From a virus (Duplodnaviria > Caudoviricetes): 64,000 bases of DNA. The notes beneath the pieces were generated by a model. That model was not told the DNA's origin. It saw only the letters and a program-made list of their open reading frames with translations, and searched no databases. Location: IMG/VR virus record IMGVR_UViG_3300021958_008605, positions 1 to 64,000 of that record; one strand, 5' to 3'. Of this stretch, positions 39,433 through 62,532 are shown piece after piece (positions within the stretch are counted from its first letter, which is position 1; each line of letters begins with the position of its first letter). A program made the translations under genes and the position numbers.

Positions 39433-39723
39433 TTAATATCCTTCCATCCAATCGTTATATGATTGTGTAAAATCTGAACCTGTTGCATATCCATCAGGTG
39501 AAGAAAAATCATATTCTAATCCATAAAATCCACCAGAAGGAATTTCAGAACCACTCAAAAAATTATATCTTTTACCTTGCGGTAACCGTCTTTTTGCCCA
39601 ATGATGTAAATGTCTATCTAATGTACTACCTGATAGATTATTTAGATTCGATACATGAGAAATTGTAAAAAGACTCCCACTTTCTTCTGATATTATAAAA
39701 ATTTCGTTACTTATATCTTGCAT
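39433..39723 (-). CDS. Small tail-associated protein
   Basis: LPQGKRYNFLSGSEIPS resembles the 'VP.G.PY.I....ELP' tail-assembly pattern; lies between the chaperone and the giant tail gene. Confidence 0.5.
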   Translation of the reverse strand: MQDISNEIFIISEESGSLFTISHVSNLNNLSGSTLDRHLHHWAKRRLPQGKRYNFLSGSEIPSGGFYGLEYDFSSPDGYATGSDFTQSYNDWMEGY

Positions 39724-39740
39724 AATATTTTTTTTATTTT

Positions 39741-60000: not shown

Positions 60001-62532
60001 TGAAACATAATTTATATTTAAGTTATCTTCTGAGAAGTTACTTGATGATACAAATTCATTTACAAGTTCAGTTGAAGATGTAGAACCACTTGCTATTAAA
60101 TCATCAAGTATTTGATAACCAATAGAATCACCGACTTCCAATTCAAAGTTTGGTGTTAATGGTGTACATTTAGAAGATACATCATCTATAATTGTTATCT
60201 GGTCTATTAATGGTATTGATTGTACCTTAGAAAGCCAAACTCTATCATTTGATTGTATTTCTCTTGGCAGTGGTTCATATAGTTTTAATACTATTGATTT
60301 TTCTACATTTCTATATTTTACTTCATTAGTTTCTTCATCTCTATATTCTTCAGAAAATGTAGTTTCATCAACACCCCATGTTGAAATTAATTTATTATCA
60401 CCATTTCCAATATGTAAGTAATGAGTTAATAAAGGAGATATATAATCACTAAAATCAAAATCATTAAAGTTTTTTATAAATGATTCCTTTAAATCATTAA
60501 CAACCTTTCCTCTTCTTAATCTTAAATCACCCTTATCAAATGTAATTTTTACTTCTTCAGTTTTACCTGCAGTTAATTCATTCCCTTCTTCGTTGTAAGG
60601 AATAAATAAAAGTTTAAAAACAGTAACATCTTTATCGATATCTAATGTTTCACCTGCCAATTTAAGTATTTCTGCTACATTTAACTTTTGTTTTCCAGCC
60701 TTAGATACTTTTGTTAATAATGTATTATCTGATTCTTTACCAACAAATATTTTTATGTAGTTAGTATTAATTGATTGCCAAGAAATATCAAAGTCAACAT
60801 CAAATTCTTTAAAATCAGCTCCTACAATATTTTGTGGATAATTAATATGTGTAATATCAGGTCCAGGTAAATAAGCTTTACTTAATACATTTATTAATAC
60901 TTTTTTATTTTCTCCACTACCAGATTTTGATGATACTGGTTGTAAGTAAAGTGTATATTTACCAACACCATTTGTAAAATCAGAATTTTTAAGAACAATA
61001 GAACCACCTCTTCCAATTTCTCTAACAACATCACCTAAAACATAAATAACCTTATCAGCATATTTTGTTTCATAATCAACTGTAACTGTATCTGAACTTG
61101 CTATGTTAAATACAAGGTTTGTGTTCTTAACATTTATAGTTGGTTTTGTTTCACTAGAAGTTATATTTTTGTTTCCTGTTATTTTAATTTCATTTAATCC
61201 AGGCTTTAATTCAAAATATGAATCTATTGCTGATATGTCTTTTCTCTGATTAGTACTATATACAATAGAATATTCTACTTTATGAGTGTAATCACTAATA
61301 TTAACTCCTTCAAACTTAATATAACAATTATTTCGTTTAACATTAAGACCAGCCTTAGTTACTCGTAGTTTAAGTTGTTTACCAGAAACAATACCTTGTT
61401 GTCCATCACTTGTAGTATATTTAATAAACTGATTTTTAGTTGTAAAAGATATATCAGAATCAATGTTAATATCAAATTGATAAACTTTTGGGTCTATTGG
61501 TATTTGTTCAAATGTAAAAAATAATGGATAGTTAGTATATACTTGAGCACCAACAATTCCTGAATTCGTATTTAGTTTTGGAACAGGAACAGGTATTCGT
61601 TCTCCTTTTACTACCTTTGTAACCTGTAATTCATAATAAGTGAAATTTACATTTCCAAATGTTAGTGATGGTTTTTTAAAAGTAGTTGGAGGAAGATACT
61701 TATCATATCCAAATGTAATACCAGTTGATGGCCTATCATAATCAATAGCAGGTACAGGTTGGTTTCCAAACCCACCCAAAGAAAATAATGTTGGATTATT
61801 TCGTTGAGCATTTATATTAAACTCAAATGATGGTTTAAAATCAATATCCTTTTCAAACTTTATCCTATCTTGAAAATCTGCAATAACAAAATCATTATCT
61901 AAATCTAAATCTAAAACTGGTTTTATTGGTTTTAAAAGTTGTCGTTGAACTGTCTTTACAAAATAAGTTTCATTAGAAGTAATACTTGTATTAGAAATAA
62001 CTTGGATTTTCTTTTCCTGTAATAATTCTTTTTCTTTAAATTTTAATCCTAATTTAATATCAGTACTATCAACTCCATCTACAACAACTTTACCAACTTT
62101 GCCATCTGCCTTAATATTAAACGATATTTCTTTGTTTAAATTACTTGATAACGGTGGTGGGTTGTAAAAACAACTACCATCATCTCTTGTTGCGTTTGGA
62201 TTATAATTTTTAGCATTGGGGTCTGTACATCCTCCTATTAAAGTTGAACCCGGTCCACCATTTACAATTAAATCATTTGGGTCAAATCTATTTGTACCAT
62301 CTCCAAGTTCTTCGTCTAATCTTCTAAAATTTTCAAGATTGTTTTGAGTTTGTAGATTTCCATCAATTCCAAGTGTAACAGTTCCATCAGAGTTATAGAC
62401 AGCGGATGATGCTACCACAGTATCACCAGGTAACATCGGTGGTGGTGGTGAACCAGGATTTGAATCTATGATAACTCTAGGAGTCCCAGATACATAATCA
62501 TCAAACATGTCTTTTTCTCTTAATTTATCCAT
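57061..62532 (-). CDS. Large baseplate wedge-like structural protein (1823 aa)
   Basis: LPYLYKHKGTKRAL...YG resembles P2 gpI/baseplate wedge motif; LamG-like segment (DEIRLW); GCTD repeat near the N-terminus. Confidence 0.6.
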   Translation of the reverse strand: MDKLREKDMFDDYVSGTPRVIIDSNPGSPPPPMLPGDTVVASSAVYNSDGTVTLGIDGNLQTQNNLENFRRLDEELGDGTNRFDPNDLIVNGGPGSTLIGGCTDPNAKNYNPNATRDDGSCFYNPPPLSSNLNKEISFNIKADGKVGKVVVDGVDSTDIKLGLKFKEKELLQEKKIQVISNTSITSNETYFVKTVQRQLLKPIKPVLDLDLDNDFVIADFQDRIKFEKDIDFKPSFEFNINAQRNNPTLFSLGGFGNQPVPAIDYDRPSTGITFGYDKYLPPTTFKKPSLTFGNVNFTYYELQVTKVVKGERIPVPVPKLNTNSGIVGAQVYTNYPLFFTFEQIPIDPKVYQFDINIDSDISFTTKNQFIKYTTSDGQQGIVSGKQLKLRVTKAGLNVKRNNCYIKFEGVNISDYTHKVEYSIVYSTNQRKDISAIDSYFELKPGLNEIKITGNKNITSSETKPTINVKNTNLVFNIASSDTVTVDYETKYADKVIYVLGDVVREIGRGGSIVLKNSDFTNGVGKYTLYLQPVSSKSGSGENKKVLINVLSKAYLPGPDITHINYPQNIVGADFKEFDVDFDISWQSINTNYIKIFVGKESDNTLLTKVSKAGKQKLNVAEILKLAGETLDIDKDVTVFKLLFIPYNEEGNELTAGKTEEVKITFDKGDLRLRRGKVVNDLKESFIKNFNDFDFSDYISPLLTHYLHIGNGDNKLISTWGVDETTFSEEYRDEETNEVKYRNVEKSIVLKLYEPLPREIQSNDRVWLSKVQSIPLIDQITIIDDVSSKCTPLTPNFELEVGDSIGYQILDDLIASGSTSSTELVNEFVSSSNFSEDNLNINYVSASTSFVDSVLVKGNKDYNWKDFVKYSSAVERVENFYYKVKLINSYDTRYNLLTTGTDWTGSVSVTNEANSQLTKINNIKKGFDSFEKFLYESSSADTFTYPKTNSTGSIIHPLSSSAVDWYNGAIDSATNYDNTNTSRFTYNLPQHIQEDDKGQEFVLFFDMVGQHFDILWTHIKGISNSKKLEHKYENGITNDLVYHMLESLGFDADMGAQSQFLWEYAFGKHTDGTVVTEMSGKDRQQEIWRRILNNLPYLYKHKGTKRALHAAMSCYGIPNSLLTVMEFGGPKDTTQSGTTKFTFEDRTASINISGSSAITIPWKPFSNTLSTDYPNSVELRLNTEQRQDQEILSGSDWSLHLLKDTGSLGKVELRVMSGSTLVSESTETAPLFNDGYTQIVVTKETTSGNDVFTFYAKEGFQERIRTNVSGSLTISGVSGWTSGSEIKVGGSTLTASVDEIRLWRTPLSESRVDNHTLFPDAVDGNHISASTHDLIFRNDFEYPKNRHTSGDVDIKNVAIITSYCTSSVASGFTNESSYPYQYTPYDRDVTANVPSTGFSFGNKIRFESQTKILDLNYRTRATKKSFDQSPVDSNRLGLFFSPIKEINLDILKGLGEFSIDDYIGNPADEYSDEYSELKQLRNYYFDRYSLNFQEYIQLVRYIDKSLFETLESLVPHRAITSSGLLIEPHILERSKTKWNKPTSVKRNWSTTIDVEEDVNLNGENPQYNAVVDAETDINLQGTNPQYSGVVDAESDVTLTGTNPDYSTTISAESDINLVGSITRDKDSTMGGIVFNIDAKITGSVQGQYDSTAYEQIGMDPDGISRLGFGLYGSGSHSIRNYIDVSGNRIKERVKVFLVKQSYTEDVPENISDDASQGTQFVTQTKYRNKVTILPFTGSNGLETSTPSGGDIVSVTPLNGYFPSHYRNVGDLTTGLENSFFNGSKQTQATTLDGGSPVQTFTTNPNTLRVNKSGRGSGEPILEVD
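57676..57885 (-). repeat. 19-aa tandem repeat, about 3.7 copies
   Basis: TIDVEEDVNLNGENPQYNA / VVDAETDINLQGTNPQYSG / VVDAESDVTLTGTNPDYST / TISAESDINLVGS. Confidence 0.85.
62170..62232 (-). repeat. GCTD...DGSC 21-aa repeat, copy 1
   Basis: GCTDPNAKNYNPNATRDDGSC. Confidence 0.85.

What the first reader, a model, noticed from the sequence alone, without database searches (positions are those of the whole stretch)
39433..62532. [S/T]-G-S tripeptide strongly enriched in virion proteins: candidate glycosylation sequon
Manual count of SGS/TGS: 26 in the 2863-aa tail protein, 13 in the 1823-aa baseplate-like protein, 4 in 55154..56359, 3 in 53935..55065 and 4 in the 96-aa protein 39433..39723, about 50 in all. 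I found only about 2 in all enzyme ORFs combined (ESGS in DUF5672, DSGS in one GT7). Internal control: 25 of the 26 in the giant protein fall in its N-terminal ~1520 aa (43770..48332), while the equally Ser/Gly/Thr-rich C-terminal ~1340 aa has only one, so composition alone does not explain it. Established: Ser-Gly is the attachment site of xylose-linked glycosaminoglycans, GT7 includes xylosylprotein beta4GalT7, and Sulfotransfer_2 contains GAG sulfotransferases. Inference: [ST]GS marks O-glycosylation sites for the adjacent cluster, possibly a proteoglycan-like coat.
Basis: partly seen in the sequence, partly recalled or inferred. Interest (0 to 1): 0.85.

Follow-up and report, generated by a model that had tools for sequence, protein, structure and literature searches.

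The report
Ser/Thr-Gly-Ser tag on phage tail proteins
The outer tail proteins of this marine jumbo phage and all its relatives carry the tripeptide Ser/Thr-Gly-Ser four to seven times too often; it may be where a phage-made sugar coat attaches, but no chemistry shows this, and the sugar-gene cluster next door is not its lineage-wide partner.

Summary
Pooled, 50 motifs stand against 12.1 under local shuffles and 25 under a dipeptide model. SGS and TGS are the two most over-represented of all tripeptides in these proteins. Codon use gives no DNA-level cause.

The excess is a lineage trait:
- It occurs in all 144 related baseplate loci, 120 giant-fibre homologues, and the cultured phages Mel-JY01 and immuto.
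- It is absent from T4 and from cyanophage S-SCSM2R, which has 13 glycosyltransferases.

The motifs sit at beta-strand ends and hairpin tips of Ig-like domains. Their positions turn over between lineages.

The adjacent GT7/sulfotransferase cluster is specific to this clade. What every motif-rich phage shares is a tandem pair of GT4-like transferases elsewhere in the genome, not on this contig. One distant relative, LR756508, lacks half of that block and largely lacks the excess.

My best reading (about 0.5) is an enzyme-read tag, probably for O-glycosylation. A structural motif remains a serious rival (about 0.3). The proteoglycan analogy is not supported. This scan had already noted the same motif in at least 48 other genomes.

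The parts
39741..48332 (-). Giant tail-fibre protein, 2863 aa, with 26 [ST]GS (7.2 expected).
   Evidence: The 120 homologues are all enriched, O/E 1.7-5.0. Most homologues end in a Peptidase_S74 chaperone; this one has a Hint domain at residues 2459-2583.
43767..48332 (-). Motif-rich N-terminal 1522 aa of the giant protein (25 vs 3.35 expected). Its modelled part is a string of Ig/cadherin-like beta-sandwich domains.
   Evidence: AF2 model of residues 600-1330. Foldseek matches tandem RTX-adhesin repeats 6xi1 at E 6e-10, cadherins and S-layer proteins. No internal sequence repeats by BLASTP.
39433..39723 (-). 96-aa protein just downstream of the fibre gene, with 4 [ST]GS (0.28 expected).
   Evidence: No Pfam or PHROG match. 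I saw no ORF of similar size at this position in the two relatives examined; homology was not tested.
57061..62532 (-). 1823-aa baseplate-associated protein with 13 [ST]GS (2.4 expected).
   Evidence: Homologues: Mel-JY01 11 vs 1.4, immuto 5 vs 1.3, LR756508 2 vs 0.86. Motif positions are hardly shared between lineages.
55154..56359 (-). 401-aa baseplate-peripheral protein with 4 [ST]GS (0.87 expected), from a very large marine family.
   Evidence: The 102 diverse homologues have a median O/E of 6.3. The AF2 model has pLDDT 89 and puts the motifs at strand ends or hairpin tips. No clear PDB fold match.
53935..55065 (-). 376-aa protein with 3 [ST]GS (0.71 expected). It shares only a C-terminal 40-aa segment with the 401-aa protein.
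1000..39142 (-). Adjacent, co-directional island of about 38 genes for nucleotide-sugar synthesis and transfer. It is specific to this clade and has no lineage-wide association with the motif.
   Evidence: Pfam: 7 SDR epimerases/dehydratases, Ugd, RmlC, DegT, 3 radical SAM enzymes (one B12-dependent), PfkB kinase, TPP enzymes, cytidylyltransferase, Methyltransf_24, GT2_4, 3 GT7-LamG, DUF5672. The amidinotransferase is named from a 43% tblastn match, not from Pfam. No transmembrane segment apart from one borderline hydrophobic stretch in a TPP enzyme, and no Pfam hit to a flippase, polymerase or priming transferase. The order fibre, MT24, GT2_4, GT7-LamG is kept in close relatives.
53126..53707 (-). 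Sulfotransfer_2 gene between the baseplate genes and the GIY-YIG/primase genes.
   Evidence: Conserved at this position in close relatives.

Best explanation
[ST]-G-S, usually with a hydrophobic residue on each side, is a short surface tag that an enzyme reads on the outward-facing tail proteins (baseplate periphery, fibres, weakly the sheath) of this phage lineage. The most likely reader is the lineage-wide tandem pair of soluble GT4-like (GT-B) glycosyltransferases, with a neighbouring GT2. In complete relatives this block lies after a PD-(D/E)XK nuclease gene, far from the tail genes and outside this 77-kb contig. The enzymes would O-glycosylate a Ser or Thr of the tag in the cytoplasm during late assembly. 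The variable, fully soluble sugar islands, here the roughly 38 genes downstream of the giant fibre gene, would supply and extend clade-specific sugars. Shown: the excess, its specificity, its distribution among proteins and phages, its position in the models, and the co-occurrence with the GT block. Inferred: that the tag is modified at all, that the modification is a sugar, which enzyme starts it, and which residue accepts it.
For: 1. The excess is order-specific and specific on both flanks. It is twice what dipeptide frequencies predict.
2. It is not a DNA-level effect. The 56 motifs use 23 different 9-mers, and the GGT/AGT codon bias is a general codon-pair effect tied to GATC avoidance.
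3. It is confined to the outer tail proteins. In the complete relative G001, 12 ORFs hold 136 motifs vs 27 expected, and the other 275 hold 28 vs 44. Some equally Ser/Gly/Thr-rich neighbours have none: a 717-aa protein has 0 vs 3.25, and the giant's C-half has 1 vs 3.9.
4. It is not generic to fibres or to sugar-rich phages: T4 has 8 vs 11.7 and S-SCSM2R 24 vs 21.3.
5. The motif turns over while its density is kept. In the p401 family, outside the conserved columns, SGS is 3.4x and TGS 3.1x over 47-49 different columns, and all other 25 S/T/G tripeptides are at most 2.2x. In the 1823-aa family the sites are hardly shared between this phage, Mel-JY01 and immuto.
6. By my reading of the DSSP strings, most confidently modelled motifs lie within a residue of a strand/loop boundary, at varying places in the domains. 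No coordinates were available.
7. The GT4-GT4(-GT2) block is present in immuto, Mel-JY01, 4 of 4 complete relatives and G009. It is absent from T4 and S-SCSM2R.
8. LR756508 shares the baseplate module but lacks GT_90 and the GT2. It has only 106 vs 76.8 genome-wide, and its 1823-aa homologue has 2 vs 0.86. All 144 loci of pair-bearing relatives have O/E 2.5-7.3.
9. Published LC-MS of immuto DNA found only dA, dC, dT and fdPreQ1 (PMC10516641), so its GT block does not glycosylate DNA.
10. No export or lipid-carrier machinery was found in this window's island, which points to a cytoplasmic acceptor.
Against: - No chemical evidence of any modification exists.
- The motif and the GT block are both universal in one lineage, so their co-occurrence is confounded by shared ancestry. 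The only contrast, LR756508, is a single distant genome.
- Several sites are conserved across the family, two of them even in LR756508. At some sites G-S is kept while the first residue varies, as a structural element would behave.
- In immuto's spike the motif forms tandem [ST]GSF micro-repeats ahead of a GDGSxLTGI motif, which looks like a structural repeat.
- A depletion in non-target proteins seen in G001 was not reproduced in Mel-JY01 or immuto.
- The GT4 pair has no demonstrated protein acceptor, and its best PDB match is weak (chlorovirus B736L, E 0.0016).
Confidence: 0.5

Rival explanations
1. The motif is purely structural. Phi-[ST]-G-S-phi would be a favoured way to end or start a beta-strand, or to make a tight hairpin, in the Ig-like and other beta-sandwich domains peculiar to this lineage's tail proteins. 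It would be inherited and re-invented because it folds well. The sugar genes would serve something else.
For: The motifs sit at strand ends and hairpins. Hydrophobic residues flank them. Many sites are conserved across 35-60% identity, some even in LR756508. At some sites G-S is kept with a variable first residue. Immuto has tandem [ST]GSF micro-repeats.
Against: Other Gly turn motifs are not enriched (NG 0.85, GN 1.17, GD 1.04, SGT about 1.5). In the DSSP strings the Gly is often the last strand residue rather than a turn residue. The motifs occupy different places within the domains, and no sequence repeat is detectable. Homologous baseplate proteins of LR756508 do without most of them. Sites turn over while density is kept. 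T4 and S-SCSM2R fibres lack the excess.
Confidence: 0.3
2. The motif is a tag read by something other than a glycosyltransferase. Candidates are another Ser/Thr modification (phosphorylation, acylation), a fibre-assembly chaperone, or a host-surface ligand.
For: The specificity, surface position and turnover fit any reader. A small chaperone-like gene follows the fibre gene, with a weak Phage_tail_APC match and PHROG 20196.
Against: No kinase or acyltransferase is known to be conserved across the lineage, though I did not search for one systematically. The only conserved candidate enzymes I found are the GT block. The 96-aa and 99-aa genes downstream of the fibre gene have no obvious counterpart of similar size in two close relatives.
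Confidence: 0.12
3. One reading: a proteoglycan-like chain started by xylose on Ser-Gly, extended by the adjacent GT7 enzymes, fed by Ugd and sulfated by the Sulfotransfer_2 protein.
For: Three GT7-LamG genes, Ugd, seven SDR enzymes (one could be a UDP-xylose synthase) and a sulfotransferase are present and conserved next to the fibre gene in close relatives.
Against: The same excess occurs in Mel-JY01 and immuto, and no GT7-LamG homologue exists in 50,697 phage records. The flanks are hydrophobic, not acidic. Pfam named no GT14-type xylosyltransferase in the window, though several ORFs had no hit. S-SCSM2R has a sulfotransferase and shares an amidinotransferase and a DegT-like enzyme, yet shows no excess.
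Confidence: 0.05
4. The excess is an artefact of composition or of DNA-level signals.
For: The proteins are rich in Ser, Gly and Thr, and the Gly codon in the motif is GGT in 50 of 56 cases.
Against: Global, local-block and dipeptide nulls all fail to reproduce the counts. The codon bias is the same for G-S and S-G pairs outside the motif. The motifs use 23 distinct 9-mers. The excess persists from 29% to about 40% G+C genomes.
Confidence: 0.01

Closest known systems
Mycobacteriophage virion glycosylation by phage-encoded glycosyltransferases (Freeman et al. 2023, known here only through citing papers such as PMC12619734; the original was not held)
   Same: Phage-encoded soluble glycosyltransferases are proposed to decorate the phage's own virion proteins in the cytoplasm.
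   Different: There the glycans sit on C-terminal tails of the capsid and tail-tube subunits and were shown chemically. Here the candidate sites are a short internal tripeptide on baseplate and fibre proteins, the capsid is not enriched (Mel-JY01 capsid 1 vs 0.6), and nothing is shown chemically.
Bacterial autotransporter heptosyltransferases (TibC/TibA, Aah/AIDA-I; PMC4358343)
   Same: A cytoplasmic GT-B enzyme modifies many serines of a beta-rich adhesin. The mapped TibA sites lie in a peptide containing NSGG and VSGT.
   Different: Only Glycos_transf_1 (GT4) and related Pfam models matched the phage pair. The substrate here is made of Ig-like sandwiches, not a beta-helix with 19-residue repeats. 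I did not look for an iron-finger motif.
GtfA/GtfB O-GlcNAcylation of serine-rich-repeat adhesins of streptococci (from my own knowledge; raised by earlier notes e1-5697824 and e1-5819271)
   Same: A pair of GT-B proteins, one of family GT4, acts together in the cytoplasm on Ser in S-x-S type sequence of a surface fibre.
   Different: Those substrates are long low-complexity Ser repeats that are then exported by an accessory Sec system. Here the tags are isolated tripeptides in folded domains. No DUF1975-type domain was detected.
Giant-virus fibril and capsid glycosylation by virus-encoded clusters (mimivirus, chloroviruses; from my own knowledge)
   Same: Large, clade-variable, virus-encoded sugar islands without host export machinery are thought to coat outward-facing virion fibres. 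The best, though weak, PDB match of the GT pair is chlorovirus B736L.
   Different: Those are eukaryotic viruses with different acceptor proteins, and no [ST]GS sequon has been described for them.
Glycosaminoglycan attachment sites of animal proteoglycans
   Same: Ser-Gly is at the core, and a GT7, Ugd and a Sulfotransfer_2 protein are encoded nearby.
   Different: The flanks are hydrophobic, not acidic. No xylosyltransferase was named by Pfam. The motif is equally enriched in relatives without GT7.

Membership tests
Phage virion glycosylation (mycobacteriophage type) | Phage-encoded soluble glycosyltransferases | tested here: met
   GT2_4, 3 GT7-LamG and DUF5672 in the window. A GT4-GT4-GT2 block in complete relatives. 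No transmembrane segments in the window's island apart from one borderline stretch.
Phage virion glycosylation (mycobacteriophage type) | Glycan attached to C-terminal Ser/Thr-rich tails of capsid and tail-tube subunits | tested here: not met
   The motifs are internal and lie on baseplate and fibre proteins. The Mel-JY01 capsid has 1 vs 0.6, and its tail tube was not flagged in the scan.
Phage virion glycosylation (mycobacteriophage type) | Sugar detected on virion proteins | not testable with these tools
   This needs glycoprotein staining or mass spectrometry of virions.
Proteoglycan (glycosaminoglycan) attachment | Ser-Gly acceptor flanked by acidic residues | tested here: not met
   Hydrophobic residues occupy the position before the motif (27 of 50) and after it (25 of 50), against 15 expected. 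The same holds in immuto (44 and 39 of 60).
Proteoglycan (glycosaminoglycan) attachment | Initiating protein xylosyltransferase (GT14) | tested here: inconclusive
   No such Pfam hit among the window ORFs scanned. Several ORFs have no Pfam match at all, and the partial ORF at 1..855 was not scanned.
Proteoglycan (glycosaminoglycan) attachment | GT7 galactosyltransferase, UDP-glucose dehydrogenase and sulfotransferase | tested here: met
   Three GT7-LamG genes, Ugd (18236..19399) and Sulfotransfer_2 (53126..53707). They do not travel with the motif across the lineage.
Bacterial autotransporter heptosyltransferase system (BAHT) | GT9-like catalytic domain with an iron-finger motif | tested here: inconclusive
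   The conserved pair matches Glycos_transf_1 (GT4) and related Pfam models only. The iron-finger was not examined.
GtfA/GtfB serine-rich-repeat glycosylation | Two adjacent GT-B genes, one of family GT4 | tested here: met
   Both members hit Glycos_transf_1 or GT4-conflict, and they are adjacent in immuto, Mel-JY01, G001, G002, G006, G008 and G009.
GtfA/GtfB serine-rich-repeat glycosylation | Substrate with long Ser-x dipeptide repeats and dedicated export | tested here: not met
   The motifs are isolated tripeptides in non-repetitive sequence. No export genes were found.
Tandem Ig/cadherin-like beta-sandwich extender (fold class of the motif-rich part) | String of beta-sandwich domains of about 100 aa | tested here: met
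   The AF2 model of residues 600-1330 is well modelled at about 1000-1250. Foldseek matches 6xi1 at E 6e-10, and 371 PDB hits reach E of 0.001 or better, including cadherins and S-layer proteins.

The most novel reading that the evidence does not exclude
[ST]-G-S is the sequon of a phage-encoded cytoplasmic O-glycosylation system. A conserved GT4 pair primes it, and clade-variable sugar islands extend it, coating the baseplate and fibres of an abundant lineage of aquatic phages. That lineage runs from 160-kb Flavobacterium and Microcystis phages to marine jumbo phages of about 280 kb. It would be the first defined protein-glycosylation sequon in a bacteriophage.
Probability: 0.45. Interest if true: 0.85.

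Novelty: new variant of a known kind. Interest (0 to 1): 0.62.

Why it matters
If the tag is a sugar attachment site, tail fibres and baseplates of very abundant aquatic phages are glycoproteins. Their glycans would be encoded by fast-changing phage islands. That would bear on host recognition, on escape from host or grazer recognition, and on how these islands are annotated; they are usually read as host-surface or DNA-modification genes. A three-residue sequon would also make the idea directly testable, because two motif-rich relatives (Flavobacterium phage immuto and Microcystis phage Mel-JY01) are in culture. If the motif is only structural, it is still an unusually sharp lineage-specific signature for recognising outer tail proteins in metagenomes.

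Tried and rejected
- DNA-level cause: rejected. The GGT and AGT codon biases are general codon-pair effects.
- Recent internal duplication: rejected. BLASTP finds no repeats in the giant protein.
- Generic property of fibres: rejected by T4 and S-SCSM2R.
- Avoidance of the motif in non-target proteins: O/E 0.64 in G001, but 1.47 in Mel-JY01 and 1.27 in immuto, so no conclusion.
- A transferase shared between the adjacent island and the islands of Mel-JY01 or immuto: tblastn finds only epimerases and a DegT-like protein.
- A natural knock-out: none found. All four complete relatives carry the GT4 pair, and fragments without it are uninformative. The records behind L015, L016, L039, L125 and L141 are not held, so they were not searched.
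- Fold of the 401-aa protein: Foldseek found nothing at E of 0.001 or better. VIA-align's best is Z 5.1 to a phi812 baseplate chain, too weak to use.
- Pfam on the immuto and Mel-JY01 fibres: no family covers the [ST]GSF/GDGS repeats.
- Literature: three full-text searches found no paper describing this motif or glycosylated phage tail fibres. Freeman et al. 2023 was not held.
- Rhodothermus phage RM378 has a weak GT_89-like hit (26% identity). I did not scan it.

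
Full report
**What is in the window.** All sizeable genes lie on the minus strand of a 29% G+C phage contig of 77,219 bases; the window is bases 1-64000. In transcription order the genes are:
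- baseplate genes, which continue beyond the window;
- a 1823-aa baseplate-associated protein, then proteins of 207, 401 and 376 aa;
- a sulfotransferase, a GIY-YIG nuclease, a primase and SbcCD;
- a 2863-aa fibre protein and two small ORFs;
- about 38 sugar-pathway genes.

The order of the tail genes matches Microcystis phage Mel-JY01 and Flavobacterium phage immuto. Complete relatives in IMG/VR are 274-289 kb and collinear with the contig.

**The observation.**
- Whole-protein shuffles expect 7.2, 2.4, 0.87, 0.71 and 0.28 for the five proteins.
- Shuffling inside 40-aa blocks gives 12.1 for the pooled 50 motifs, with a maximum of 22 in 1000 shuffles.
- A dipeptide model expects 25.4.
- SGS and TGS are the two most over-represented of all tripeptides in these proteins (z 9.8 and 5.6). 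Permutations and near-variants such as SGT, TGT, GSG and SSG reach only 1.3-1.6x.
- Both outer positions are specific, and hydrophobic residues are favoured on either side.
- The N-terminal versus C-terminal contrast in the giant protein holds: 25 vs 3.35 and 1 vs 3.9.
- The 56 motifs on the contig use 23 different 9-mers. The GGT and AGT codon bias is the same for Gly-Ser and Ser-Gly pairs outside the motif. It follows from near-total avoidance of GATC.

So the excess is real and lies at the protein level.

**Where else it occurs.**
- The syntenic tail proteins of Mel-JY01 and immuto are equally enriched, for example 11 vs 1.4, 9 vs 0.6 and 26 vs 5.9.
- All 120 homologues of the giant protein are enriched, O/E 1.7-5.0.
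- The 102 diverse homologues of the 401-aa protein have a median O/E of 6.3.
- All 144 related baseplate loci from IMG/VR are enriched, O/E 2.5-7.3.
- In the complete relative G001, 12 ORFs (baseplate, fibres, sheath and a 342-aa unknown) hold 136 motifs vs 27 expected. The other 275 ORFs hold 28 vs 44.
- In Mel-JY01 the capsid, portal, terminase and two giant non-fibre proteins are at or below expectation, and the sheath is mildly enriched.
- T4 baseplate and fibre proteins show no excess (8 vs 11.7).
- The huge Ser/Gly/Thr-rich fibres of cyanophage S-SCSM2R show none either (24 vs 21.3). That phage has 13 glycosyltransferases and a sulfotransferase (PMC12801897), and shares an amidinotransferase and a DegT-like enzyme with this window.

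The motif is therefore a trait of one lineage. It is not a general property of fibres or of phages with many sugar genes.

**Anatomy.** The giant protein has no detectable internal repeats. An AF2 model of residues 600-1330 is well modelled at about 1000-1250. Foldseek matches it to strings of Ig/cadherin-like sandwiches such as RTX-adhesin extenders (E 6e-10). The 401-aa protein models at pLDDT 89 without a clear PDB relative. By my reading of the DSSP strings, most confidently modelled motifs lie within one residue of a strand/loop boundary: at the end of a strand before a hairpin, at the start of a strand, or between two strands. They are not at one fixed place in the domain. In several cases the Gly is the last strand residue rather than a turn residue.

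**Conservation and turnover.** In the giant-fibre and p401 families many sites are conserved. Outside the conserved columns of the p401 family, SGS and TGS are still 3.4x and 3.1x, spread over 47-49 different columns. All other 25 Ser/Thr/Gly tripeptides are at most 2.2x. In the 1823-aa family the sites of this phage, Mel-JY01 and immuto hardly coincide, though each protein is enriched (alignment at about 30% identity is imperfect). This pattern of kept density with moving sites fits selection on the motif itself.

**The sugar genes.** The adjacent island makes and transfers unusual sugars. It has no membrane proteins apart from one borderline hydrophobic stretch, and no Pfam hit to a flippase, polymerase or priming transferase. 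Close relatives keep it directly downstream of the fibre gene. But it is specific to this clade. No GT7-LamG homologue exists in 50,697 phage records, and no transferase is shared with the islands of Mel-JY01 or immuto.

Earlier notes of this scan tie the motif to a conserved pair of transferases, and I tested that here:
- Immuto's two adjacent GT4-like genes, and a GT2 one gene further on, follow a PD-(D/E)XK nuclease gene. They are conserved in Mel-JY01 at 37-54% identity.
- The pair is present in all four complete relatives and in G009. The full block, with the nuclease and the GT2, was confirmed in G001, 120-140 kb from the tail genes.
- The pair is absent from T4 and S-SCSM2R.
- In the phage collection the first gene of the pair hits the same records as the 1823-aa baseplate protein does, plus a weak partial match in Rhodothermus phage RM378. 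Ancestry therefore confounds the link.
- One contrast exists. The 484-kb phage LR756508 shares the baseplate module and the first GT4 gene but lacks the second GT4 and the GT2. It shows only 106 vs 76.8 genome-wide with no strongly enriched ORF. Its p401 homologue keeps three sites, two of them at the family-wide conserved positions.
- Published LC-MS of immuto DNA found only dA, dC, dT and fdPreQ1 (PMC10516641), so its transferases do not glycosylate DNA.

**Verdict.**
- The best-supported reading is an enzyme-read surface tag, most likely for O-glycosylation primed by the conserved GT4 pair, with clade-specific islands elaborating the glycan. I put it at about 0.5.
- A structural strand-end motif remains a serious rival, at about 0.3. 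Reasons: many sites are conserved, G-S is sometimes kept alone, and immuto's spike carries tandem [ST]GSF micro-repeats.
The flanks are hydrophobic, no xylosyltransferase was named by Pfam, and the motif does not depend on GT7.
- Three full-text searches of the open literature found no description of this motif.
- This scan has noted the motif before in at least 48 other genomes, so it is not new to the scan.

Noticed in passing
whole contig (window 1-64000 and 13 kb beyond): Some palindromic tetramers are almost absent: GATC 1 vs 200 expected, ACGT 1 vs 200, GCGC 0 vs 34.5, CTAG 36 vs 200. This looks like strong avoidance of restriction sites, and it explains why Gly-Ser is never encoded GGA-TCN.
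   Followed up: partly
window 39741-48332, residues 2459-2583 (about 40584-40994): The giant fibre ends in a Hint/intein-like domain, where most of its 120 homologues carry the Peptidase_S74 self-cleaving chaperone domain. This looks like a swap of the C-terminal autoprocessing module.
   Followed up: partly
window 1000-39142: None of the roughly 40 sugar-pathway ORFs has a clear transmembrane segment, and Pfam named no flippase, polymerase or priming transferase, so the glycan is probably built on a cytoplasmic acceptor. About a dozen ORFs have no Pfam match.
   Followed up: partly
window 21608-22618 and 25323-26021: The amidinotransferase (43% identity) and the DegT-like protein (41%) have their best phage matches in the T4-like cyanophage S-SCSM2R, inside its own glycosyltransferase island. 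Unrelated marine phages apparently share sugar-pathway parts.
   Followed up: partly
window 37943-39142: A 399-aa protein without a Pfam match lies in the small-gene stretch just downstream of the fibre gene. It is conserved near the fibre gene in G001 (56% identity) and has a 30% homologue in the distant 484-kb phage LR756508. It may be a conserved fibre-associated factor.
   Followed up: no
window 2473-3411 and 3408-4286: These two unannotated ORFs weakly resemble (24-28% identity) the ORF that sits between the GT4 pair and the GT2 in the conserved block of the complete relative G001 (222,528-223,277).
   Followed up: no
L002 31478-34639 (immuto 1053-aa 'tail spike'): The N-terminal 380 aa carry tandem [ST]GS[FLI] micro-repeats running into a repeated GDGSxLTG[IL] motif, for example SGSFSGSFQGDGSELTGLN, three times. 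No Pfam family covers this.
   Followed up: partly
G001 (IMG/VR, 288,673 bp, direct terminal repeats), G002, G006: Complete genomes of the window's clade are 274-289 kb, and in G001 all ORFs of 200 aa or more lie on one strand. The contig is therefore about a quarter of a jumbo phage genome.
   Followed up: partly
G001 182299-183327: A 342-aa protein of unknown function carries 12 [ST]GS vs 1.1 expected, the highest density in that genome. It lies away from the tail-fibre clusters.
   Followed up: no
L014 4750-8430 and 11243-13162 (Mel-JY01): In Mel-JY01 the motif-rich fibre genes that follow SbcCD are also followed by sugar-type genes: a 1226-aa FkbM-methyltransferase protein and a 639-aa cytidylyltransferase-like protein. 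This echoes the fibre-then-sugar-genes order of this window.
   Followed up: no
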